NCBI GenBank assembly: GCA_040357565.1
Contig: JBDODJ010000048.1
Strand: one strand, 5' to 3'
From: Cercozoa sp. M6MM
Lineage: Eukaryota > Protista > Endomyxa: Ascetosporea
Length of the DNA stretch: 64,000 bases
Part shown: positions 10,357-54,096 of the stretch, in pieces
Numbering within the stretch: position 1 is the first letter of the stretch
How the letters are laid out: every line of letters starts with the position of its first letter
Program-made: the position numbers and the translations under genes
Notes under the pieces: generated by a model
The model's database searches: none
Told to the model about the DNA's origin: nothing
The model's input: the letters and a program-made list of their open reading frames with translations, nothing else

Positions 10357-10609
10357 ATTCTGTCCTCGCCTCGCTCGCTCCGGGCAGCGCAACGACCCCG
10401 CCGCTAGCGTAGCGTAATATAGAGTTGATTAGCATTGTACAGTAATCCCTCGATGGATGGTACTCAGCTCGGCACTGCATACGGTAGCACCGTACCTACC
10501 GACGTCGATAGCGTGCGGCATCGTATGATCGGACCATGGGATATTATAATATATCTTCGGTTAGTAATCACTTCATAGACAGCCAACGGTTCCGCTGACT
10601 TCCGTTTGC

Positions 10610-11646
10610 TTACTCGCTGTCCTCGTCGCTCTCGGCAGGCGGCAGCACACGCAGCTTGACGCTCTCGTCGACATCGGCACCAAGGAAGGAATCGCACATC
10701 AAGTAGACCTGTGGCATAAGAAAATGTTCCGCGTACTGATCAGGAAGGACAGGGATGTGTGAGAAAATGCCGTTACCTTAAGGTTGTACTTGCCCTCCTG
10801 CTCAGGTGCTTCGAACGGCACCTTGACGCGCATCGGGTTTGAACGGAAAGCGACCTTCTTGACGGCAAGCAGCGCGTTGCTGTACAACAACGGATACATG
10901 GTGCAAGATGACTGACAGACGCACGGCCACAGAACAGATATAGAAACGAGTACGTCTTGGTGTCGCCAACCACAACGTACCAACCTAAACACATACACGC
11001 ACACACATACCACATACATACATACACACACGACATGTACAACGTAGAAAAGAGATGGCTTAAAGTACTCTCGCGGTGCTCTCGCGGGAAGCGCGGTGCG
11101 TGCACCACAGGCGGCTGCATTGGACGCGGACCCTCTGCACACGCAGATACACAAAATGTGAGGTCGTTTGAGACAACACTAAATGCTGGCGAATACACAA
11201 CATGCTACCACGCTCTTCGCCCTCATCCTCGTCCTCTTCCTCCTCATCATCACGCGACAGGATGCACTGCAGCACGCAGTCCTCACCTGCAACACAGCAT
11301 GCCATCACAGGAACTTTCTGGTTCGATACTTCAATGCAGTGCATGTACCAGCAGGCACTTCGTCATCGGCAAGTCGGCATTGGAGTTCCACCTGTGTTCA
11401 CAAAACAGGTTATGACAGGGGTAAATGACACGAAGACAACGAAGGAGGATTACGTTCGGGAACGAGTTACAGACTTCGGCCACCTGCTCGATCTGCTGCT
11501 CGGACAAACTGCAGCACACAGAACCACACATACACCGACACAAAAATACAATGGACATTCAACATGGGCAAGGTACTCGGAGAGCACTTGGTCGCGCTCG
11601 TCGTCCTTTTCCTGTAAACGTCATCAGTACAAACATCGTGTGCGTG

Positions 11647-11691
<45 letters not shown>

Positions 11692-14600
11692 GTGTGTACC
11701 AGCAGGTCGAAGACGCCCTTGATACCGAGCTTGGTGGCACGAGCAGCACTGTGACACACAGGGAGTCAAGAGAGTCAAGTCATGATGCTAACGAAGCCAT
11801 CGCCTACCGCTCCTTGTCGAAGTACGGCAGCTGCAGGAGCGGCGAGTCCGTGTCCCACTGGCCCTGCGGTCAAGCAATGACACACACGCACATCAAACAG
11901 CAAGGTAGCGGTGACGACAATAGGTAGGTGTGACACAGGAGAAAGAGTACCTGGATGAGCATCTGCATCATCTCAATTGTTGCCAGCGCCGGAGTCAACC
12001 AGCCTACATGACATGCATACATAAGTGCACCAATGTACACACTGGTACGAAGGAAGAGGTTACCGTTCGACGACAGGACGTTCACCATAGCATCCAACAA
12101 GAGCACCGCACGTTCAACGATGTCCTCTCTGTACGAACAAAACATATTACGCATACATGCATGCAAGCAAGGGTCTGAAAGGGGCTACCGCTGACGCGAG
12201 GCGGCGCGACGCAGGCCGATACGCGACATGTGCGACTGCAGCAGCACGTTCACCTGCAGCGGCACCAGGTCGGCCTGCTCCTTCTCCTTGGCGTCGAGAC
12301 CAGCGACTCGGTGCGGCTGTACACACACACATACACACACAATGACCCAGCGCAGGGGGGCGGGGGGGGGGTGACACGGCAGAGAGAACAACACAGTCAG
12401 CAGAGAGCACAACACAGTCAGCAGAGAGCACAACGCACCAGGTGCTTGGCCAGCTTGCGCAGGGCGATACGCAGCTGCTTGGCCGGATCCTCCTCGTCGT
12501 CGGCCTTGTCGCCCAACAACTTGGCGCGGTCGCTGTCACCCTGCACTCGACACATACAGAGTGCGTGACACAACACAAGACAGAAAGGCACACCACAGAA
12601 GAAACAGGGACAGAGACAGGAACAAGGACAAGGACAGGGACAGGGACACACCGTGTCGAGAAGCGACTCAAAGTCGGCGGCGCAGGACAGCACCTGCAGG
12701 ATGCCGCGCAGCTTCTGCGTCGGCTGCAGCAGCTCGTCAAAGGCTTCGATGGTCTCGTACGACACACCAAAGTTGTTCGAGATACGGCCTATTGAGGCGA
12801 CACTCACATCATGCCCAAACACTCCGTCCGTCCATCCGAGAACACAGTGGGGGTGTACCGAGGTTGAGCGGCTCAATGCGTTCCTCGGCCTCTTCATCCT
12901 CCTGCAGACGAAAGTCATGTCAATCCAAGTCAGCAGTGTGACACAAAAACAGAATGCGCACCATGGCATCCTCGTCGGCACGGATGTCGATGCACTTGGC
13001 CTCCTGCAGTTCCTCGAGTGTCTGCTGCACCAGTTCCGACAGGTGCATCGACACAACCTCTACGCAAAAGCCAGACTCAGCCGATACTTTTGGACCAGTG
13101 TGTCCACATACAGATACAGACACAGACACAAGTGTACCCGGCTGTCGGCCAGCGAGGTGGTAGTAGTTCGGGTTGCGCGGCAGACGCGTGAACAAGAATG
13201 ACCAGGTCTACCGTACCCTCTCCCCGTAACACACACACACACACACACACCCACCCACCCACACCCACCCACACGCACAGTCAGCACAACAAGAAGCGAA
13301 AGCTACCAACAGGTTGACGGCATCCTGCATGCTCTCCAAAGTGCCGGCACACACCTCAGACAGGAAGTAGTCGTGCAGCGCCTGCGGCAGCGAGCTCTCC
13401 ACCGGCACAACCTGCTCTCACAGAGTGCCTACAGCAGTCGCTCAGATCTGTAACACGCATGGTACCGGCTTCTGCATGAACTGCGCCAGCAACTCACGCA
13501 GCGACGGCGAGCACAGCACCTGCGCTCCCATAACACCCACACACATACACCGACAAGTCACATATGCACACATACACCGACAAGTCACATGTGAGTTGTA
13601 CCGAGGCCGCCGACTGGGCACGACCCTACACGCTCACACGTACACACAGATACCACAAGGTGGACAGCACAGGAAAACGATGTACCAGCATGCGGGCGAC
13701 GTGCGCCAGCGCGAGTCGCAGCGAGGCACCACCGTCACTCAGCACCACCACAGCCTGAGCCACCAAACAGCGCACACTCAGGAGTCGGATAGGAGACGAG
13801 GCAGGCTCGTACCTGGTCAGCACGCAGGTCGTACGGCAGCTCGTGCGAGGCGTCGAATTCGACGGCGAGCACGCGCACGCGGCGACGGAAGAACAGGGCC
13901 ACCAGGCGGTCCTTGTCTGTGCAAGACATCCCGTAGACCCAGTGTCACCCTCCCGCAATGACACACACACGCGCACGCGCGTGCGGAAGGGAGGGCCTAC
14001 CAAGCTGCACCATGTCGTGCGTCCAGCACGCGGCACCACAACGAGCGTACTAAAACAGTATCAGGCGATCAAGGAAGGGACAAACAGCGTCAACACAGAC
14101 GCACATCTTGCATAGTGCAGGTACCTGCAGGGACAGGTCGTCACTCTCGTTGTACAGGGCCTGGAGCGACGGGTCCTTCTCGATCTCCTCGTCCGACGCA
14201 CCGCCGAATCGCTACATTCCGCCATCGCCATAATTTATCACGCGTACCTTTCTACTTCTCTTCAAGGTGGCAAGAGTACCTGCGGGTCGTCGTCGCGAAT
14301 GGCGCGAGCCACGAACTGCTTGGCCACGCGGCGTGCCATGGCACCTGTTCCACGACACATATAGCCATAGATACAAGGGAACATTGTGTCGCTGAGGGTG
14401 ACATAGGCGAACGCACCAGTCGGCACGAACACCAGCAGCGTCGGCGCCGGCTTCTTGCCGTCACTCTCCGGAACCTGTACCAGCACAGAAACAAGCTCAC
14501 ATACATATACAACAGCTTCCGTGTCCAGAGGAAACACACCAGCTCATCGGCCTGTCGCAGCAGGGTGGCCACCATGGCACCACGACGCGCCTGTCCAACA

Positions 14601-17600
14601 TAGCTCGTTACGTACATGCACGCGCACACATTGATATCTATGTAGAGCAGGGTATACGCGAGTGCTCATCTGCTCAAAGCCGGCGTTGAGGGCCAGACGC
14701 AGCGGGATCGGCCGCGTCGACGGCGCGAACACAAACGTGCCCGTGCGAGGGTCGGCACCCAGCCATGTGCCTGAGCGATACTCACCGATTCATGACACCC
14801 ACCCCACAGACAGACAGTCAGACAGGCAGGGAAATAGAGTACCCAGGTCATGTGCATTGGAGACACAGGCGGCAAGACCAACGAGTCGCATGTGCTCGTT
14901 CTCCGCACTCTGCAGACCTCGTGAAAACAATGGTACTTCCCCAACGATAAAAGAAAGACGGTACCTCGGCAATGTAGCGCATGCGCGACACGGCCACCTC
15001 CATTGGCGGACCGTCCTTGCCACCGAGGAGTTCCAAGTCGTCCAGCAGCAGCAAGTGCTGTCACACACACACACACAGTCAGAGATCTCAGTGTGTTTTT
15101 GATTCGAACACACCGCGCGCTGCAGTCTCTCGGCCGACCGGCGGTGCCAGTTGCGCGACAGCAGTTCAAAGTCTACACACAGATACCACACGCGTAAGTG
15201 TGAGTCTAAACCGACCCCGATCTGTTTCGAAGTTAAACTGACCAGCAGCGGCGGCAACAATGATACGGCACGCGTTGAGTGTGCGCACGTCTTCCGCGCG
15301 GTCGGCGCCACTGTACAAACGCGCGGACGTACATGCATGGACAAAAAAATAGCAGAGAAAAGCTTACGCCAACAGGCCAACCGAGATGCCCAGTGTCTGC
15401 TGGAACTTGAGCTTCCAATCCACGAAGCGCATCTGCGCCAAGTCACGACGAGATGTCAGGTAGACCACGAAGGCGCCGTCCTCATCCTCATCTGTACACA
15501 GAGTGGCATCCGTAAAAACGTACAACAAGGTAACCAAGCACAGACACATGCAGTGTACCGTCAGAGTGACCAGTGCCGAAACGCTCCAGCGCACGGAAGA
15601 TGGCCAACTCGGCCAGCAACGTCTTGCCTAAAGACAACAAGTCAAAAAAACCAAGAAACACAGGGACATAGATGACGATACCCGAGTTGTTAGGCGCCGC
15701 AATCAGCACGTTCTCGTCCGTGTGGCACAGAGCCTTGCGGCACTACACACACACAGACATATGAAAGGCCCAAACAGCACACTGGCACATCCATCCGTGC
15801 TTGGACAAGAGGACCTGTGTTTGCAGGGCGTTCAGTCGGCGCACGCCGCACTGCGCGTAGCGAGTCTGCAGCTCGGCCGGCATTACCTGTAGCACACATA
15901 GACATAGACACATAGACACACAGACACACACACGCACACATCGAACGTGTTTTCCCCAACACACACAAAGGTGACCACGTAGACGGTACCTGCTCGGCGC
16001 TGGGGCCAGAGAGCGACACCGGGCGAATGTCGACCAGCTGCGTCGGGGCCGGGTCCTTGTCCGGCTACAAACCAGCACCGACACATTACATAGGCACACA
16101 TTGCATAGAAACAGACGTACCAGCAGCATGTGACGGAAGCTGACAGCAACGACGGTTTCAACACCGAGCCATCGATCCGAACGCAGTCGCACAAAGTACT
16201 GCGGCGGCATCGGCGACTACACACAGACACGATAGACATTAACGCTTTCCGGATGAACACACATGGGATAGGGTACCACGATGGGCACGCAGAACACAAT
16301 GTCGTCGCGTGTCGGTCGGCGCTGCGACAGCAGGCAAGTCTGGCGGTACAGCAGCGTCGCGCCATCACCGTCCTACCGAATGTCCAAGTGTGCACATATA
16401 CACAGCTATACCAGACAAGAGGATGGAGTTACCTCGACCCACAAGTGGAAGGACTCGACGCAGTTCTTGCCGTGCACAGCCGGGTGCCACTGGAAGTCGG
16501 CCTGCCCAAAGTGATTGTCACACATGTGTCCACTCTTAGTATACTTGGAAACACACCTGCAGAGTCACGTGGACGCGCAGCAGCGATCGCGTGATCGGTT
16601 CGACCTTGGCATCGACACGCACGTTAGGCACGAGGTGCACGGCACGGTGGATGTCCTTGGCCAGTCTATAGACGCATACACACGCGTACAAGTGTACACC
16701 ATCCAAAGATATCTTTACGGAAGCAAAGAACCTGGGGAATTGCAGCAACTCGCCGAGTGCAGCCGGCGTGAGCTCCAGCAAACGCTGCACAGAGACACGG
16801 CGTTGGACTGCAACCCAATTCACACGCACACTGAACAAAAGCAGAGCGTACACGCCAGTCAAAGTCGAGTTTCTCGAGTCGTCGCACCACATCATCCGGC
16901 TGCACACGTCGTGAAACATAGCATATGAATGAACAATCCAGAGGTCGACACACAAGACGGAACGTACAAGCAGGTTGGGCGCATCGACATCATCAGCCAC
17001 GGCAGCCGCGCGGATGGAGCGCAGCACCTGACGCAGCGGCGACTCGCAAGCCCACTGACGGTGCTCGACACTCAGCGCAGCGTCCAGTGCGACTACACAC
17101 GTGTGTTATGTACAGTGTCATACATGCGAGGAAGACACACACAAGGCGAAAGGGAGTACCACGCGCGGCCTGCGCCCAGCGACGCTCGAGCGCGACGGCG
17201 AGCATGGCACGCATCAGTCGGGCCGCACTCTGTGTCGATGACAACATAAGATACAGAGAAGAGACGAACACAAGGGAGGGACAAACGCACCTGCGTGACG
17301 TACGTCATGTCCGACGACAGGGCGTAGTTGTCGAGTCGCAGACGAGCCACGTACGACTGCAGCAGCACGTTCACCTTGGCCTGCGCAAGTGCCAACATAC
17401 ACACACACACACACACACACGCACACACACACACACACACACAAATTGACATGACGGAATGGGGATAGGCTACCTGCGCCGACTGGGCATCGCGCAGCAG
17501 TGGGATCGGCACCTTGTCGGCCAGCTGCGCCAGCTCGAGACGCTCCTCCTCGCGCACACTCATGTGACGGAACTCCTCGGCCAGCGTGAACACGTCCCAC

Positions 17601-18891
17601 ATCTCCAAGTCGTGCATGTGCGGCTTCAGGTGCTCGCGGAACGTCTTCAGCGTGCCGTAGGTCAGGTAGAAGTTGGCAGCCACACTGCAGACACAGACAT
17701 ACAATGTGGTGGCAGTGCAGTGTGTTCACAATGGTCACACGTACCGACCAAGCGACGTCGGCACCAGGCGGCGCGTCTGCTTGTCGTAGCGAATCAGACC
17801 GGCGCGGTGCAGTTCCTGCCATATAGTAAGCATCATGTACACTTACACTAGCCCACGCGAATGAGAGGTCGCAGCTACCACAGCAGCAGTGTGGACGAGA
17901 TCGGCGCGGAACGACTTGAGCTCGGCGTCCTCGGCATCAGCAACGCCTGTGCATATGCACCCCAGTATGCACTCCAGTGAGCCAAACAAAAGAAAAGCTA
18001 CCGTAGAGCGACGGGTTCTGCAGCATGCGCACGAACAGGTACGTGTACGACAGCCAGTTGACGGCCTATCAGACACAACACACACACACAATTGGAGGTA
18101 CAGACGACAAGTGGGGGTAAGACAAAATACCTCGTCGACGTTGCGCACGAAACCGGCCACGATCTCGGCGTTGAGGAGGTCGCAGAGACGCGAGACGAGT
18201 TGCGACTCTGCACGTGTACCCAGTCAGATGGTATGGAACCAGTGACAAGCAATGGTACCAACAGGCAGCTGTTCGTTGATGAGCGACATGTAGTAGCGCA
18301 GTTCACTGTACAAAAACACACACATATAAGCACACTTAGTCATCCACAAGCATGTCCAGGCAGGAGAGGCAGCAAGCTACCGATGCGTGGTGATGATGGT
18401 GCCGTCACCCTGCTGATCGAGGCCGGGACGACCTGCACGGAATGGCACACCCCAAGTTAATTAGCACAACATAAGGGCGACACAGCACAGCCATGGTGTA
18501 CCAGCACGACCGAGCATCTGCAGCACGTCGAGCATGGAGAGCTCGACCCAGTCGCCCTTCTCCGGGTTGTAGACCTTGGTGCCCTTGATGATGACAGCGT
18601 GCGCCGGCAGGTTGACACCCCATGCCAGCGTGGCCGTCGACACCAGCACCTGTACAGGCACACGTGAGTAGGTACAGATGTCACTAGGTTCGGAAGGCAC
18701 AATTAAGGGGGCACACCTTGGCATGACGGTACAGGAAGAGATCTTCCACGAGACCACGGTCGTCCTTGGTCATACCGGCGTGGTGGATGGCGACACCGCT
18801 GGAGAGGATCTCCTTCAAGTGCTTGCTGTGGCACTCCTCCACTGTCTCGCGAAGGATCTCGCTCTAACAACACACACATACACTCACTCAA

Positions 18892-18950
<59 letters not shown>

Positions 18951-21900
18951 ACACACACACACCCCCCAATCGGGGGGGGGGGGGTACAGTGTCACTGTCG
19001 GGCGGCACGAGACGGGTATAGGTGCCGTCCTCACGCGCGCGTTCAACGATCATCTTGGCCACGTTGAACGTGTCCTATGCACGAGCGTACACGTACCACA
19101 CACCACAAGGAACAAAGAGAAAGCGGAGGCAGGCACCTTGCGCGAGTGCACGAACACGAGCACCTGCTGACCGTTCTCGGCGTTCTGCTTGACCAGGTCG
19201 TAGCAGCTGCACAGATATGCAAATAGGCATGCCCAACAGATTGCTTCGGCAAGGCGAAAGGTACACGTCGTTCATCATCTGGAACTGCTTGTAGGGTCGC
19301 TTGAGCGTCACACCCTACCATACAGACACATAAGACAGCAAACAGGCAGGTGTGAGCCACATGAATGCAGTTACCACAAAACGCTGCGTGAGCGGCACGG
19401 GACGGTACTCACTGCCAAAGTGGTGCAGGCCCGTGTCCAAGTCCACCTGCACGAACCGAATATCGACGGCCACAACAGCTGTGCCAAGAAAGGGGAGCGT
19501 ACACGGAGGAAGACAGCGACGTCGCGGTAGTTCGGCAGCGTGGCCGACAGACCGACGATACGGGTCAAGTCGCCTGTTCGTACAGCACACACACATACAG
19601 GCAGACATATAGGTGGTGGTAGAATGTGACCGAATTACCAGTGTCCTCGGAGTGACGCAGCGAGCGCGCAACGATGGCCTCCAGCACGGGACCACGCTCG
19701 TCGTGCAGCAGGTGGATCTCATCGATGATCAGCAGTGTCACACGCGACAGCAGCGTGCTGCGTGCACCTGCACACACGAACACAATACACAAACACATGC
19801 ACACCCTTAACCCTCTGCGCAACATCGAAAAGACACGCGTACCGAGACCGTCCTTGCGAGTGACGACGTCGAACTTTTCCGGAGTCGTCACGATCACGCT
19901 CGACTCGTCGATCTGTTGTCTGTTGACGAGAAACAGTAGCGGGGAAACGAGTGGACAAACAGCATAACAAGGGGTACCTGGTGAGTTGCTGGTCACCCGA
20001 CAACTCGCGCACCTTCATGCCGTAGCACGCCAGTCGCTCGCGGAACTTGAGCGTGATCTCACGCACCAGCGACTGCACACAGCGCGGACATCATCCTCAA
20101 ATACAGAGCAACGCAGGAAGGAAACAGCAAGGATACCTTCATGGGTGCCACGTAGACTACCTTGAAAGCTTGCAAGAAGTCGTCCTGTTACACATAACAA
20201 CAATATCAGCACACCAGGCCCAGGCAAGGTGAGTGTTTCGGTTAGAGTACGCGGTTGCGATGGCGGCCGACCTCGCGCAGCATCGAGAGTAGGGCGACGT
20301 TCGTCTTACCGGCACCTGCACCACAGGGAATTTACAAACCACCTCTGTTCATACTGCAGTGGAGATACCGGTGGGAGCACACACGAGCATATTCTCGGCC
20401 GAGTTGAGAGCCGTGCCGAACACCTGTCACAAAAACAAAAGATACACCACCATCAGACAACAAACACACTCGGAAAGGAGATGCACCTGACTCTGCATGG
20501 CGTTCAGAGCAGCCGAGTCGCCGAACTTCTCCGTCAGGTCTGAGAAGGCTGGTTGCGCCTGTCCAGGGTGGTAGGGGGGGGTAAAAGTGAAAGGAAATTA
20601 ATAAGGAGCACCGCGACGTACCCACTTCGGCAGCGACGAGATCTTGACAAGCTCCGACGCGTCGACGCGCTTGGTCTGCGAGCGCGGTACCTGGTACTCG
20701 ATCCAGCCCTTGTGCGGCAGCTTGACCGTGCCCTCGGGCAGCGTGAAGTCGCCGGCATTGGTCTGCGTGTGGCCGCCCTCGCCAAACTTGAGTGCCTCCA
20801 GGTTGAGCATCTGCACCCCGCGTGCCATCCAGATTACAGCGGAGAGTTTCGACAAGGACACCAGGAACGTACCTGAGCAGGCCGCGTCTTCATCCACTCG
20901 GGGCCCTCCGTGGTGACCTCCTGTGCCACGGCCACGTCCTCGCTCTCCTCCAGCGTGGTCTCGCGCTGCTGCACGCGCTCCTGCAGCTGCTTGGCGTCCT
21001 TGCTGAGCTTGTCCTCCATGGCACCGACGGCGGTGCTGCCCATGCTGGCAGTGCGCAGTGTGGCCAGCAACTTGGCCAGCGTTGGGTCGTTCATCATCTG
21101 ACCCTACGTGGATGGACATGAGATAGAACAGACCAACAGACAACAGACAGAACAGTAACAGACAGAACAGTAATGCTGTACCTCAAGCAAAGCACGCTGC
21201 TCGCGGTCACCCTCGGCACGCGCCAGTTTCATCGCCCACAGCACCTGAATGCATATTTGCATATTGAATGAAAAGGCACACGATTGGAAGAAGAAAGTGC
21301 GCTCTACCTCGCGGGCGTTGTCAACCAGCACCTGGAGGAACTCGGCCTCGCCTGCAGCAGGTCACATGATCACAAAATCTCACACAGTACAGCAAAAAAA
21401 CAGTCGAAAGCAAGGCTACCAGACGGCAACAAGGCGAACAGCTCGTTCTCGAGGCCGCGCTCATCGTCGAGGTTCTCCTCAATGATCGTGAACGCCTCGT
21501 CGGCCAGTTTCTGTGCCTCGGCCGGGTCCTGCAAACAGTACAAACATCGGAAAACAAAAAAGGCATTGCGACAAATCGCTGGAAAATCGGGCAAAAAGGT
21601 GATGGCCCTCGGATTAGCATGATCGCTTATATCAGCACGGTTTGGTTGATAACACCTCAGAAACACAGGTGTCGAATGTTGTCGTCATAGAGTCAACCCA
21701 AAAATGGGAACACAATTTTTATCTCGTGAAATCTCATCATCCAAATTCATACACGTCATGGGTCAAACAAAATTTTGAAAACCCAAACCAAGCAATAACT
21801 GGCTGTCAGGCAAGAGAGCGAAAAATGACACAACACAGGGCAAATCCTCAGGGAAACCGAGTTTGAGCAAGAACTCGAAAAAGAAAGGAAACATACGTCG

Positions 21901-23276
21901 ATTTCGCAGTAGTGGGTAATCTGTCGCTGGAGCCAGTGCGCGCCAACCTCGCGAACGTCAAAGTGACCGCTGCCGGTCGTTGGACTGGCCAGAGCATCCT
22001 TGGAAGCCTGCGGAAAGATACAGTAAAACAGTCTGTCTCAGGCAAAGGTGGCAATAGACGCACCTGGATCAGCATCTGTCGACGTTCCGTCTCATCTACG
22101 TTCAACATACGTAAGAATCAAAGACCAAATGTACAAAAACAGGGGGAGGGTACCGACTTCAAGCTCTTCCTCCTCACCGACGTGCTCATCATCAGACATG
22201 GCCTGCAAATACATACGTACATGTTAACGCGACAGGGGCAAGCGCACTCATCACGGGGGGGGGGGGGGACCTTATCCTGCAGGATGAATTCGTGGCCGTC
22301 ACGCAGTGTGCGAAGTCGCTCGTCACCCTCAGTAACGTCCTGCAGATGGTACACAAGATACACAGATTCTGGCGCCGACATGGGGACAAAAAAAAAGTCT
22401 CCACAATACCTCTTGGTCGTCAAGCTGGAGCGGAATGATCTTTTCGCCCATTTCTTCCTTCATCTCACCCTCTGCACACACACACACATGCGGTACATTA
22501 ACAGCAACACTGCTTGCACTCAACACCAAAAGCGTACCAGTGATTTGTGCGGCCGTGGTGGCGGCCGACTGGAAATCCCGAATCTTGCGCAGCATGTTCT
22601 GCAGACGCGAGTACTCGTCGCTACAGTCGATACACACACACGAACTTTCGAAAACGCAAGGACACACTAGGCGAGAGGTACCTCTGCAGCTTGCTGCGCT
22701 TGCCAAACAAAAGCTCGTCCACAAGATTCTTCTTGTCGGCAGGCGAGAACCCTACCATGTCAACAAGAATATCAATCGAAAGACAAACAGGTACAACGAC
22801 GAGCAAAGTGTACCAGACTCCTCGTCCTTCATGATGTGCAGAACTTCGTCAGCAGCCGAGGCGAGGTCATCGTGCGACTACAGAGACGCACAGATACATC
22901 AGAAACATCAAGTATTCAGGTACAGGCACAACAGCGTACCGTAAGCTTTGTGTGCTGTGACAGGAAACTGAGCAGCAAACCCCAGGCTTGTCTTGCCTCC
23001 TACGTACACAAACACAGCGTAACGCCACGTATTACACAACAGTGCCTATGAACAAGTAAACCTCATTGGTTGGCACATAGTAGTCCTGGAACTCTGCCGA
23101 AGCCACTGATACGACACCTCGCACCGCCGCCTACGCGCACAAGGACACAACTCAAGTTTATCAAGATTAGACAAGTGACAAAGCGAACCTGTTGTGAAGC
23201 ACGTGAAGCAGCAGCCGCGGCCTGCTCGCGCGCATCGTCACCACGCTCCTTGCGGTCGCGCTTCATCTGCGAGACA

Positions 23277-23322
<46 letters not shown>

Positions 23323-23422
23323 NNNNNNNNNNNNNNNNNNNNNNNNNNNNNNNNNNNNNNNNNNNNNNNNNNNNNNNNNNNNNNNNNNNNNNNNNNNNNN
23401 NNNNNNNNNNNNNNNNNNNNNN

Positions 23423-23466
<44 letters not shown>

Positions 23467-23843
23467 CTTCTGAGAAAGGTGTGTATTATACCTTGGCCAC
23501 GAGGTCGGAAGGTTGCGTAAAGGCGGCACGCGAACCCATCGACTACATGGAGACTCATAACGACACAGACATACAGCCACTAAAAAAGGAAAAGGTTACC
23601 TTGCGCAGGTCGTTTACACTGCGATGAGACAGTGTCTCGGCCACGCCGGTGGGCACATCGGTAAGCCGACGGCCCGTGTAGCGCTGCAACACAAGGTTTG
23701 CATTGGCCGAGTAACTGAATTGATTCTTCTCGACTACAAATTACACGATAAATCAAACAAAAACAAAACCCTGGAAAAAAACTATAGGCCTGGGATGTGC
23801 GCCACACAGCGAGCAGAGAGAACTCACGAAGTTTTTCAGCCAT
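10610..23843 (-). CDS. SNRNP200: U5 snRNP 200 kDa RNA helicase Brr2, about 85 GT-AG introns
   Basis: N-terminus [22 protein letters not shown]; PWI-like [10 protein letters not shown]; cassette 1 [63 protein letters not shown]; degenerate cassette 2 (APNNSGKT, LDDLELL); C-terminal Sec63 region [16 protein letters not shown] (stop 10610-10612). Confidence 0.96.
11638..11697. repeat. (TG)n microsatellite in Brr2 intron
   Basis: Directly visible. Confidence 0.95.
18892..18985. repeat. (CA)n microsatellite followed by C6 and G13 runs, Brr2 intron
   Basis: Directly visible. Confidence 0.95.
21601..21696 (-). ncRNA. Candidate intronic box C/D snoRNA with antisense to U6 snRNA
   Basis: In the 368-nt Brr2 intron 21529-21896: box C-like ATGACGA (21688-21682), internal CTGA (21660-21657, 21635-21632), D-like CCGA (21612-21609), imperfect terminal stem GTTGACTC/GGGCCATC, and CATGCTAATC (21621-21612) complementary to conserved U6 GAUUAGCAUG. 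Confidence 0.5.
23281..23463. repeat. (TG)n microsatellite spanning a 100-N assembly gap
   Basis: Directly visible. Confidence 0.95.
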
Positions 23844-42291: not shown

Positions 42292-45200
42292 ATGGCGTTG
42301 AAACTCCTTGCCGCACTCGCGCTCGGCTTTTTCCCTGTCGTTCTTGGAAGTGAGGAACTGGGCTTCACAAATGGTACGCAGCTGACATGAGCTTTCCCCT
42401 AAACAACTTGAGAAAGGATACCCTGCTCTCGTGTTTTTGGCTTGCAGTGGAAATCATTCAAACGAGTGACTACGGACGCGTGCTCGTGTGGAATACCGTG
42501 CCTCCAGGAAACACCAACGAAATGTACCTCTTGAATTCCAACGGCAGGACCGATTTTGCGAACTGCCGCGAGGCACCGCCATCGGATCTGATTCCAGCCG
42601 ATATCGACTGCGCAGTCGTGCTGTTTGAGGACGGTAGTTTTTTGTTGTCTTTTGTCTTTTGCACACAACACCGCTCCAACTTTATTGTTTTTCTTAGACC
42701 AAACGTCGCCGTGGGACAACAGTATTTATGACTTGGCCACGTACACATTGGGTAGACTCAACTTGCTAACCGACCCTTCAACTCAATATACAGAATTAAC
42801 ACACTCGCTTTTTATGAACAGGACGAAACAACAAAGATCCCTACGAATTCGACTACCAAGCCATCTCCCTTTACGAGTGTATCTTCTAGCTTTGTTTTGT
42901 GTGAATTCACTGCCTCCTTTGAGTCAACGAAAATACGGTTTGTTTTTAGCGCCTGAGTTCTCGTTCGGTCCTGCAGTCTATGGCAGCAATCTCACCGTCA
43001 TGCTGGACGATGACAGCACGGGTCGCCACTTCCTGTCGTTTCGCTACCGCGTACGTTCACTCAACAAAAAAAGTGATAACTTAGTGCACTAGTCGGGTTT
43101 CATTTTGAAACACAGGCCAAGGTGGTCGAGTCGCGACTGATCGACGGCGACTGGGTCGACTCGGAGTGGACGACCAGCACTTCCAGTCTGGTACATGACA
43201 CACGCGATTGATTCATACATTGTGTGCTTGTGTTGATGTCGTTCCTTGTGTTTTTGGCAAACAGATCACACCAAGAGAGTGCCAGGAGAAACGCAATCTC
43301 GGCGTGCACTTGCGCGACTTTGAGTTTCCGTTAGATGCGTATCCGATGAAAGTGACGGTCACGATAACGGTGATTGATGAGGCGACGTCTGCTGCCTTCA
43401 ATACGACACAGGAGGTCCAAGTGCGCAACACTCCGGGTTCGTTTTCGCTGCTGCAGTCTGGGTATGTGCCGGTGAATGAAGAGAGCGGTTACGTTGAACT
43501 CGCCTGGTCACTGCACGATAACCTGGTACCCTAGTATTGTGGCGAAAACAAAATACAATCTGTAGTCTTGCAACGACTGTGTGTTGTAGACTGGAGAGAA
43601 CGCCACGTCCTACGTTTTGAAGTACACGCGAATGGCTGACCTGGGCGACAGTTCCACCGAGAGCGGTGTCTTTGCTTTGCCTTCCGGGTCGATCACTCTC
43701 GTCGAGGATGACTACCAAGGACAGACTGTGCCAATGAATAAGTTCCAGGGAACGTTGAGTCTGACACACGGCTACACGTACATTTTTTTCTGCACACAAA
43801 TGTATCCAAAGTAATCACATGCACTGTGTGTGCTTTGCAGTTTTGACGTGCGTATCGTTGCTTTCAATGACTACGGCAGCACTTCGACCGAATCGGCCCT
43901 GATCGCGGTGGGCACTAAACCGTCGCCCGTCCAGGTAGTCAAAATTACGTCCTGACTTGTTTTGCTGGATTCTTGGGTGTGTAACTTAGGACCACAAATA
44001 TGTTGTCATCGACACCGGCGATGCCGACAATGCATTGGTATCCTTTCTTTTCAGTGTCGCTGCTGAAATAACTAACTTTGACATCGCCGTAGGTGGAAAC
44101 GACCTGGTTGGCCCCTTGTTACTCGGGAACTGTTGATCGACCTGTTTTCTACCGAGTGTATCCTCTCTGTCTTGAGTTGCTGATTGTTGTGAATGTGATT
44201 GGTTTATTCTCCTCTCGCAGTTTGCAAGACGGTGTAGTTGTGAAGCAGCAAAACGAAACATCGGCCAGTCTCTGGGTGCCTCACAATTCGACGTTCTTGC
44301 TCAGCGTTCGTGCCGTCAATTTCATCGGATTCTATGACGAATCTTCTTTTTCGGTATCAGGAAATTGTTCGTTTTAGTTTCCGACCTGTTGTTCCGTTTG
44401 TTTGATTGTGTTTCTTGGTGACTAAATGACGCAGGTGGACACGGCTGATGTAGATGTTCGCATCCAACTGAGCACATCAGTTATCACATACATCAATGCT
44501 TCAGCGCCGAATACTCTCACGATGAAGTTTGAGCCCATTGAATATGCCGAAAAGTGCTCCTTGCTTTCATTGTCTTTGATTGCTCTGTGAGTGAGTATTC
44601 TCGCCTGAGTGTGCAGGTACGTCGCTCGAGTGCGTCCGGTGGGTGTTGAGGCCTGGCGCTCACAGTTTGTCTCCCCGACGGAAGGCGATGACATTGCTGC
44701 CGAATTCTCCGACTTGGCTCCCGGAAAGTACCAGGTGCAGGTTGCTGGTACACTCTCTCATTTTTAGTTCCGTCATGATCACTGGGTCGCTTGTTTTACA
44801 ATAAACCCGACTGCAGGAGTGCGACTCGGTCAAATTGGCGACTTCTCCGCCGACGTGTTCCAGAACGTGCATGCGGTGCCACTGAGCGTCGAAGGACTCG
44901 AGTCACAGATCGACTCTGAACTGAACTTTGTAACCTCATTTACTATGATCAAACTGAACTTGTATTTTGCTTGTGAAAGGTGAATTTACTCAATCACGTT
45001 TGGTTTATTTGTGCTTCCAGTTGTTCATTTTCTGGGACGGATGCGAGGGCGACGCCGAAGCGGCTGAAGTGCAGTGGCGCGATACGACTCTTGACCTGCC
45101 TGCTCAAACTGTATCATTTTCCCTTTTTGGTTTCCCTTTTGACTCACTGGCGTTTTCTTGGGTCAGTTGACCACTCGAGAGAGCTTTGTCCGCGTACCGG

Positions 45201-52498: not shown

Positions 52499-54096
52499 TC
52501 AAATGTCGTCAAGATCGTCAGCAAGCAGATCCGCGTCCAAGTCATCATCCAAAAACAACTGCGCGCAAGCAAAAATACAAAAAAAAACAGCTGGTGGCAC
52601 AAGCAAAAAAACTGAAGGCCTACCGATTCATCGATCTGTTCGGCCACTTGCTCTGCACAATAACAACAAGACTCAGCGAGTGCGAAAACAGTACAATGCA
52701 GAAGCAGGAATGTACCGACAGGTCCACTTGAAACAGGAGCTTCGAGAGTGGCAGGCTCCTCGGTTTCCTCCGACTCGCGCACCTCGTAGGTCTCGTCATC
52801 GGCTTCCTCGTCGTCAGCAAAGATGCCTGCACAGGTGCTCATGCATGTGGATGCAAAGAGAAACATAAGAACAGGCATACCACGCTTGATGGCATACAAC
52901 TCGCGGCCCGTGAGAGCGCCCTTGTGACCTCGGCCGCCCTTCTTCTTGCCGCCCTTGGCCATCTTGTAGCGCGCATTCTCCTCGATCTGCTTTTGCTTCT
53001 CGGCGTTCTTTTTCCGCTTCCACTCCATGAAGACCTCGTGCGTCAGCGGAGCTGTGCACACAGGTACAGAGTGTGCAAGCATCACACAAGAGAGAGAAAG
53101 GATGCGAGCGTACTCAGCTTGCGGCCGTCCATGAGGAGAGAGCGCTGAGCGTCAAGTTTCTGCTCGAACAGCGGGTCGCGCTTGTACCTGCCAAAAATAA
53201 ACACTGGTATCAAAATAAGGGATAGCGAAAGACACATGAGGTATGAAGTACACGTCAGCAAGTTCCTCTTCGGTGGGACCGTCGTTCTTCTCTGTTGCAA
53301 CGAACAAGCAAGGGAGCGTACATCGTGTTATCAGTCAAGCCAAAGCAAAAAAAAAAAGAAAACGGTACTCTTGCCCTTCTTGCCCTTCTTCTTCTTCTTC
53401 TTGCCACCCAAGGCAGGGTTCGCGAGCGCCTCCTCCAGTCGCTTCTTCTCCTCGGCCTCCTTTTTGGCCTTCTTGTCGGCAATGGCCTGCACACACCGCG
53501 TCAGACAAGTGTGCTTTCCCATCAGCAAGAGCAACGAAACACAGAGACGCACCTTCATCATGGCAGTCGCCTCGGCCTGTGCTTGTCTTTGCAACTCTAC
53601 TCACACAAGGCATGCAATTCTCGTGAATTTATATATCTAATATATATATATATATATATCTATATATATGTTGTTATGTGGGTGACAAAACAAACCCTTC
53701 TTGCGAGCCTTGGCCTCGGCCTTCTTGCGGTCAGCCTCGACTTGACCTGCGGAAACATGAACCAACACCAAAAGTAACTGCGCACAAAACCAGCACACAG
53801 GATAAGTGAGAAACGTACGCTTGTCGGTGAGGCCCTTCTTCATGACGGCAATGTGCTTCTGCGCCTTGGCGCCCTTCTTGTTCTTCATGCCGAACGTCTT
53901 GTCCACGATCGCCTTCTGCTCACAAAGAATACTCAAAAGTGCCGATTCACTCCAGAAGCTTCAAAAAAAGGGCAAGCACCTCCTTCTTCTTGCGATCCTT
54001 CGTCGACGTGGGCTTCTGCAACAACAAATCAAAATAATACAAGCTTGCCAGGACTGCTAGGGCAGGTATAATCACCTTCTTGGGCTTCGGCGGCAT
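52499..54096 (-). CDS. ZC3H15/Tma46 (DFRP1)-like protein lacking CCCH fingers
   Basis: MPPKPKK, IVDKTFGMKNKKGAKAQKHI; DFRP-like TPLTHEVFMEWKRKK, LTGRELY, FADDEEADD; acidic end IDESLFLDDDLD. Confidence 0.8.

What the first reader, a model, noticed from the sequence alone, without database searches (positions are those of the whole stretch)
21601..21696. U6-antisense box C/D-like RNA nested in the gene for the U4/U6 unwindase Brr2
Seen: among about 85 mostly 45-125 nt Brr2 introns, 21529-21896 is 368 nt, contains no microsatellite, and needs no extra exon (flanks join as [24 protein letters not shown]). Its sense strand has ATGACGA ... CATGCTAATC-CGA-GGGCCAT, with a k-turn-compatible terminal stem. 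Known: U6 contains the conserved AGAAGAUUAGCAUGGCCCC. CATGCTAATC is a perfect 10-nt antisense to GAUUAGCAUG (the catalytic AGC triad and U4/U6 stem I region), and the adjacent GGGCCAT is antisense to AUGGCCC. U6 is 2'-O-methylated at A53/G54 (human numbering), and mgU6-53-type guides use this antisense. The D+5 rule from CCGA points to G54. Inference: a U6-modifying guide co-expressed from the Brr2 pre-mRNA, or a U6-pairing U4 mimic that makes splicing of this intron Brr2-sensitive (autoregulation).
Basis: partly seen in the sequence, partly recalled or inferred. Interest (0 to 1): 0.8.

Follow-up and report, generated by a model that had tools for sequence, protein, structure and literature searches.

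The report
Methylation-guide RNA inside amoeba Brr2 intron
The one oversized intron in a marine amoeba's gene for the splicing helicase Brr2 likely encodes an ordinary small nucleolar guide RNA, predicted to mark one G in a sequence that U6 and 18S rRNA share (and perhaps a large-subunit rRNA site); it is unlikely to be a U4 mimic that regulates its own gene.

Summary
Observation confirmed. The Brr2 gene of Cercozoa sp. M6MM (Lemnamoeba sinaloensis, Rhizaria) has 86 introns, median 65 nt; 21896-21529 is the longest (368 nt). Its sense strand holds a 93-nt four-box C/D layout: C ATGACGA, D' CTGA, degenerate C' GTGCTGA, D CCGA, a 5-of-6-pair terminal stem, ending 73 nt before the 3' splice site. 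(1) The D guide pairs equally (10 bp, one G-U) with an 18S rRNA segment identical to U6's AUUAGCAUGG, the known dual target of snR53/SnoR53Y/NcCD11. (2) The D' guide pairs 12 bp with a conserved LSU segment. C box plus both guides arose in 3 of 3000 shuffles and 1 of 672 window tiles (this one); the tests were set after seeing the data. A 10-nt U6 antisense alone is commonplace (10 in the window). D+5 points to G54 of U6 or the matching 18S G, one nucleotide from the known family's A. U4 features (stem II, Sm site) are absent. No Rfam hit, RNA data, relative, or own U6/rRNA was available. Verdict: probable new intronic C/D snoRNA; U6 is one of two equal targets; U4-mimic autoregulation unsupported.

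The parts
10609..23843 (-). Host gene: Brr2/SNRNP200 helicase, 86 introns
   Evidence: Exon matches human Brr2 at E 3.9e-18; P0001 mapped fully onto the window; the record is named Cercozoa sp. M6MM
21529..21896 (-). Host intron, 368 nt, longest of 86 (median 65)
21602..21694 (-). Predicted mature box C/D snoRNA, about 93 nt; its 3' end lies 73 nt before the 3' splice site; composition differs from the flanks (T 0.26 vs 0.44-0.45; A 0.28 vs 0.12-0.15)
21690..21694 (-). 5' arm of terminal stem (GACTC)
   Evidence: 5 of first 6 pairs in k-turn register with the arm after CCGA
21682..21688 (-). Box C, ATGACGA (one change from RUGAUGA; with CCGA it gives a C.C pair where the consensus has U.U)
21662..21673 (-). 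D' guide, 12 bp to a conserved LSU segment (G-U at the D+5 position in both reference LSUs); also pairs with 21657-21651 as a hairpin
21657..21660 (-). Box D', CTGA
21632..21638 (-). Degenerate box C', GTGCTGA (change at a sheared G.A position); 21640-21631 also pairs 10 bp (2 G-U) with the same U6/18S segment
21613..21622 (-). D guide TCATGCTAAT, 10 bp (1 G-U) to AUUAGCAUGG of both U6 (50-59) and 18S; D+5 = G (U6 G54; G795 in the 18S of L052)
21609..21612 (-). Box D, CCGA
21602..21608 (-). 3' arm of terminal stem (GGGCCAT); also a 7-bp complement of U6 56-62
21734..21740 (-). Upstream perfect box C, ATGATGA: possible 5' end of a longer or alternative form; role unresolved

Best explanation
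The long Brr2 intron likely encodes a 93-nt box C/D snoRNA, predicted to be released after splicing and to direct 2'-O-methylation of the G in AUUAGCAUGG, a sequence that U6 snRNA and 18S rRNA share. Shown: the outlier intron, the boxes, the stem, the complementarities and the position near the 3' splice site. Inferred from the C/D pathway: Snu13 binds the k-turn formed by ATGACGA and CCGA, Nop56/58 and fibrillarin load, exonucleases trim the debranched intron to the boxes, and the D guide pairs with U6 50-59 and/or the 18S segment so that fibrillarin methylates the fifth nucleotide (U6 G54, 18S G next to the snR53 adenosine). The D' guide would act on, or merely dock to, the LSU segment between two known methylation clusters; this arm is the weaker prediction. 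Hosting in Brr2 would give co-expression with a spliceosomal gene, not feedback control.
For: Longest of 86 introns, 5.7 times the median. Four boxes in canonical order and spacing, with the best in-register terminal stem for the ATGACGA/CCGA pair. Of 14 D-like boxes in the intron the two best conserved-target duplexes (12 and 10 bp) sit before exactly the D' and D of this layout; the rest reach 9 or less. C box plus two guides: 3 of 3000 dinucleotide shuffles and 1 of 672 tiles of the window, that tile being this locus. Of 73 RTGANGA sites in the window only the 2 in this intron have a downstream D-like box with a conserved guide of 11 bp or more. The 3' end is 73 nt from the 3' splice site; about 70 nt is reported optimal for mammalian C/D snoRNAs (PMC8178906, passage). 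Precedent for the dual target: Arabidopsis SnoR53Y is assigned to 18S A801 and U6 A48 (PMC8053127 Tables 1 and 3); Neurospora CD11 to 18S-Am793 and U6-Am47 by one D' guide (PMC2780460 Table 1). G54 is a methylated site of human U6 (PMC5855946). Most Arabidopsis guides form 10-14 bp.
Against: All chance tests were designed after seeing the sequence. No Rfam family at gathering score; only weak C/D hits, E 0.21-10, none of them snR53 or a U6 guide. Both C and D deviate from consensus, and C' has a change at a sheared G.A position. A 10-bp guide to some conserved target before some D-like box is chance-level (1741 of 3000 shuffles), 12 bp occurs in 145 of 3000. The LSU duplex has G-U at the target position in both references, the site is not in the Arabidopsis Nm table, only 2 of 3 long-LSU loci show it, and that guide is predicted to fold back on itself. 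The reference rRNAs and U6 are from other eukaryotes, not the amoeba. No expression or conservation data. About 200 nt of the intron 5' of the element stay unexplained.
Confidence: 0.68

Rival explanations
1. No functional RNA: a long, partly decayed intron whose boxes and short complementarities coincide by chance.
For: Each feature alone is weak: 10-nt U6 antisense in 405 of 20000 shuffles and 10 times in the window; a coding stretch near 52548 also passes the four-box test; no Rfam hit; the whole intron folds no better than shuffles, z -0.21.
Against: Joint pattern in 3 of 3000 shuffles and unique among 672 tiles; it falls in the one outlier intron, at the usual distance from the 3' splice site, with a compositional shift; the guide is the antisense of a known snoRNA target.
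Confidence: 0.16
2. A C/D snoRNA with other ends: it starts at the perfect C box 21740 and ends either at CTGA 21660 (84 nt, LSU guide as D guide, TTGA/ATGACGA as D'/C') or at CCGA 21612 (132 nt); in the 84-nt form the U6/18S antisense would be incidental.
For: Perfect C and D boxes and a four-box order found in 10 of 20000 shuffles; the 12-bp LSU duplex lies before CTGA 21660; A-content already rises at 21745-21695; TTTGG/CCAAA could form an external stem.
Against: No in-register terminal stem for C 21740 with any D; the 84-nt form ends 128 nt from the 3' splice site; its D' guide reaches only 9 bp; it leaves the guide, D box and stem at 21622-21602 unexplained.
Confidence: 0.12
3. A U4 mimic in the pre-mRNA that pairs with U6 and makes removal of this intron depend on Brr2 unwinding (autoregulation).
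For: The antisense covers U4/U6 stem I and the AGC triad; extra U6-complementary helices in the 93 nt exceed shuffles (P 0.014 by number, 0.0045 by energy) more than for 18S (0.19, 0.036).
Against: No stem II complement upstream (-11.7 kcal/mol against a shuffle mean of -15.5; 290 of 300 shuffles as good or better) and no Sm-like site downstream; no U4 hit; an ordinary intron of the gene has a 13-nt U6 antisense; the 3' splice site scores above the median and the 5' site in the lower quartile but within range; no cryptic exon above chance, P 0.59.
Confidence: 0.04

Closest known systems
snR53 / SnoR53Y / Neurospora CD11 (dual 18S and U6 guide)
   Same: Antisense to the AUUAGCAUGG segment shared by 18S and U6; intronic and double-guide in Neurospora (CD11, 79 nt, second guide to 26S).
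   Different: CD11 carries this guide at D' and marks the A; here it is at D and D+5 falls on the next G; the second guide has another LSU site; no Rfam match. That Am793/A801 is the A of UUAGC is inferred from numbering (A794 in L052) and from the shared U6 target.
Vertebrate mgU6-53 (SNORD8/9)
   Same: Intronic C/D RNA with antisense to the U6 AGC-triad region; listed for Am53 (PMC7960923).
   Different: Predicted site is G54, for which that review's table lists no guide. That SNORD8/9 carry the guide right after box C, before D', is recalled, not checked. LARP7-binding motif not tested.
SNORD58 / SnoR10 and snR68 / SnoR68Y (LSU guides near the D' target)
   Same: The D' guide covers the LSU segment that holds Arabidopsis U2651/G2652 and lies next to A2641 (numbering anchored by spacing).
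   Different: D+5 falls between those sites, on a G not listed as methylated in Arabidopsis; family names SNORD58 and snR68 are recalled.
U4 snRNA
   Same: Contains the stem I complement of U6.
   Different: No stem II complement, no 5' stem-loop between the two helices, no Sm site, no Rfam match.

Membership tests
Box C/D snoRNA (class) | Box C (RUGAUGA) and box D (CUGA) able to form a k-turn with both sheared G.A pairs | tested here: met
   ATGACGA/CCGA keep both GA dinucleotides and the G-C pair; U.U becomes C.C, one change in each box
Box C/D snoRNA (class) | Terminal stem closing C/D | tested here: met
   5 of first 6 pairs in register, two of them G-U
Box C/D snoRNA (class) | Internal C'/D' boxes | tested here: inconclusive
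   D' CTGA perfect; C' GTGCTGA changed at a sheared-pair position
Box C/D snoRNA (class) | Guide of 9-10 bp or more directly before D or D' | tested here: met
   10 bp to U6 and 18S, 12 bp to LSU, against other eukaryotes' RNAs
Box C/D snoRNA (class) | Accumulates as a discrete RNA bound by Snu13, Nop56/58 and fibrillarin; target is methylated | not testable with these tools
   No RNA holder listed
Box C/D snoRNA (class) | Boxes and guides conserved in relatives | tested here: inconclusive
   No relative's DNA reached
snR53/SnoR53Y/NcCD11 | Antisense to the segment shared by 18S and U6 | tested here: met
snR53/SnoR53Y/NcCD11 | Guide at D', target adenosine | tested here: not met
   Guide at D, D+5 on the following G (CD11 layout)
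snR53/SnoR53Y/NcCD11 | Match to the family's Rfam model | tested here: not met
   No such hit at E up to 10
mgU6-53 (SNORD8/9) | Directs Am53 of U6 | tested here: not met
   D+5 gives G54 (numbering)
mgU6-53 (SNORD8/9) | LARP7-binding motif of U6-specific guides | not tested
   The review describing it was not held
U4 snRNA | Stem I complement to U6 | tested here: met
U4 snRNA | Stem II complement 5' of stem I, and Sm site 3' of it | tested here: not met

The most novel reading that the evidence does not exclude
A three-target guide hosted by the U4/U6 unwindase gene: a dedicated guide for U6 Gm54, the catalytic-triad G for which the review read here lists no guide in humans, which uses GGGCCAT and a second antisense copy to prise open the U6 internal stem-loop, and also marks 18S and LSU rRNA. 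It would tie modification of Brr2's own substrate to Brr2 transcription.
Probability: 0.25. Interest if true: 0.55.

Novelty: new member of a known kind. Interest (0 to 1): 0.32.

Why it matters
If real, it is a snoRNA from a rhizarian lineage whose two genome papers gave no hits for 'snoRNA' or 'snRNA' in their main text. It would extend the shared 18S/U6 antisense known from fungi and plants to SAR, in a shifted register (G instead of A), and offer a concrete candidate guide for U6 Gm54. It also shows a practical screen: in this genome, with introns near 65-80 nt, length outliers can be searched for snoRNAs. It does not open a new mechanism of splicing control.

Tried and rejected
Rfam: none at gathering over the window; weak C/D hits only. 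No whole genome is held, so the amoeba's own U6 and rRNA were not read; whether its LSU has A or G at the D' target, and whether its 18S keeps AUUAGCAUGG, stays open. Sequencing runs: 1 DNA holder, no RNA holder listed; one X1 contig spans the element with no differences, and X2 and X3 do not cover it. An exact 22-nt search of metagenome contigs found nothing. Viral contigs held neither the U6 nor the 18S motif; six contaminated prokaryote genomes gave only prokaryote-length SSU hits or none. The 12 distinct U6 copies used were found by a motif that includes GAUUAGCAUG, so they are no independent proof of its conservation. Structured-RNA ideas (pre-miRNA hairpin, H/ACA, U4): no window of the element folds better than shuffles (z -2.0 to +1.8); only the first 60 nt of the intron reach -3.2. 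Transposon or repeat origin: only short degenerate repeats. Poison exon using AG 21803: best internal splice-site pair no better than shuffles, P 0.59. TTCACGA after the upstream C box matches U6 in 3 of 12 copies, 7 nt, chance-level. Earlier findings: three look-ups returned nothing. First homolog search with one exon found nothing because Brr2 exceeds its length range. Papers seen as passages only: PMC5855946, PMC11069148, PMC13746701, PMC7960923, PMC10484740, PMC3116282, PMC5389607, PMC8522698, PMC10557570, PMC8178906. Passages plus named sections: PMC2780460 (section 3 part 1), PMC6461891 (section 19), PMC8053127 (sections 12, 13, 16). The PMC8053127 supplement was cut when stored, so SnoR53Y's sequence and register were not seen; the supplements of PMC13746701 were listed, not read, and those of PMC11069148 were not opened: either could hold ncRNA annotation.

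Full report
Setting. The window is eukaryotic and intron-dense. An exon at 17683-17474 matches human Brr2, and a 2297-aa protein identical to it exists in the protein library; its record is named Cercozoa sp. M6MM. Two papers place M6MM in Apofilosa (Rhizaria) and name it Lemnamoeba sinaloensis, with about 13 introns per gene averaging 82 bp (PMC11069148, PMC13746701, passages). Threading that protein onto the - strand gave 86 introns, median 65 nt; 21896-21529 is the longest at 368 nt and needs no extra exon.

Observation. Against U6 copies recovered from contaminated genome records, CATGCTAATC pairs with U6 49-58 and GGGCCAT with 56-62. Alone this is unremarkable: ten perfect matches of 10 nt or more to the 56-nt U6 core lie on the two strands of the window, the longest (13 nt) in an ordinary Brr2 intron. 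In 20000 dinucleotide shuffles of the intron a 10-mer occurred 405 times, an antisense of 9 or more directly before a D-like box 143 times, and that plus a C-like box upstream 7 times.

Anatomy. The intron has three C-like heptamers (21740 perfect, 21688, 21638) and 14 D-like tetramers. The pair ATGACGA/CCGA has the best terminal stem in k-turn register (5 of 6) and changes the consensus U.U pair to C.C, one change in each box at the same pair. Compensated box changes are reported in nucleomorph snoRNAs, where a C-U pair at this position is said to lower L7 binding (PMC6461891 section 19); that favours ATGACGA over ATGATGA as the partner of CCGA. Between them lie a 21-nt spacer, CTGA (D'), 18 nt, GTGCTGA (degenerate C') and a 19-nt spacer: a standard four-box layout of 93 nt. 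It ends 73 nt before the 3' splice site, close to the 70 nt reported as optimal in mammals, and is poorer in T and richer in A than its flanks. It does not fold better than shuffles, as expected for a C/D RNA but also for nothing.

Targets. I fetched eukaryotic rDNA loci from metagenomes (112 of 116 used; three confirmed by Rfam; taxa not determined, none known to be rhizarian). The D guide pairs 10 bp (one G-U) with an 18S segment identical to U6's AUUAGCAUGG, exact in 13 of 16 loci that cover it; energies are -12.9 (U6) and -11.3 kcal/mol (18S). The D' guide pairs 12 bp with a conserved LSU segment in 2 of 3 long loci (-20.4 kcal/mol), with G-U at the fifth position. These are the two best of 14 D-like boxes. 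Singly they are weak (10 bp in 1741, 12 bp in 145 of 3000 shuffles); with a C box and proper spacing they occur in 3 of 3000 shuffles and in 1 of 672 tiles of the window, this one. Only the 2 C-like boxes of this intron, out of 73 in the window, have such a guide of 11 bp or more downstream. These tests were framed after seeing the data, so the true odds are less extreme.

U6 or 18S. The shared antisense is a known device: SnoR53Y is assigned to both 18S A801 and U6 A48, sites found by RiboMeth-seq, and Neurospora CD11 to 18S-Am793 and U6-Am47. Here D+5 lands one nucleotide further, on U6 G54 or the matching 18S G. Gm54 is a known human U6 site with no guide listed in the review read; Arabidopsis lists neither G. 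Extra helices lean to U6: two further U6-complementary helices in the 93 nt (P 0.014 by number, 0.0045 by energy; 1 of 432 rRNA tiles as strong) against one for 18S. Overlapping accessory pairing has precedent, though mainly between D' and C' (PMC3116282), and GGGCCAT is already accounted for as the stem arm. So U6 is a plausible target, probably one of two; I put roughly 45% on both, 30% on U6 alone and 25% on 18S alone, given a real RNA (judgement, not computed).

Mechanism. Shown: sequence features and complementarities. Inferred from the established pathway: release from the spliced intron, k-turn assembly, fibrillarin-catalysed methylation at D+5. The D' arm is doubtful: G-U at the target in the references, an unlisted site, a degenerate C' and a competing hairpin.

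Rivals. Chance remains possible (about 0.16), since no expression or conservation data could be had. A form starting at the perfect C box 21740 (about 0.12) would explain part of the unexplained 200-nt 5' flank but lacks a stem. The U4 mimic fails on stem II and the Sm site, and no cryptic exon exceeds chance. A search for intronic snoRNA, host gene, SNRNP200, Brr2 and autoregulation listed no paper on a snoRNA in a Brr2 intron among the 15 shown of 33 (listing only).

Verdict. Probably a new intronic box C/D snoRNA that works like snR53/SnoR53Y and mgU6-53 but fails membership in either by guide position and register. Interest 0.32.

Noticed in passing
window 17262-17250 (- strand, Brr2 intron 17290-17230): Perfect 13-nt antisense to the U6 ACAGAGA box region in an ordinary 61-nt intron; no C/D boxes; treated as a chance pyrimidine-tract match.
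   Followed up: partly
window 21896-21837 (- strand): The first 60 nt of the long intron form a hairpin next to the 5' splice site (z -3.2 in one of many windows); this 5' splice site scores in the lower quartile of the gene's introns.
   Followed up: partly
window 21745-21640 (- strand): A long G-U-rich stem can pair the upstream C box region with the D'-C' spacer, an alternative fold that would mask both; not significant against shuffles.
   Followed up: partly
window 21630-21624 (- strand): AAGCGAT just 5' of the D guide is antisense to the recalled 5' end of U2 snRNA (7 nt); not checked against any U2 sequence.
   Followed up: no
window 44401-44453 (+ strand): Weak Rfam hit to archaeal C/D RNA sR4 (E 1.1) with D'/C'/D-like boxes; no conserved guide found by the scan.
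   Followed up: partly
L001-L015: Thirteen prokaryote genome records (MAGs) carry eukaryotic U6 genes, three with flanking tRNAs: eukaryotic contamination in those assemblies.
   Followed up: no
window 10609-23843 (- strand): Brr2 has 86 introns with a weak 5' consensus (GTAC in 40 of 86) and median exon 69 nt; the C-terminal helicase cassette looks degenerate by eye.
   Followed up: no
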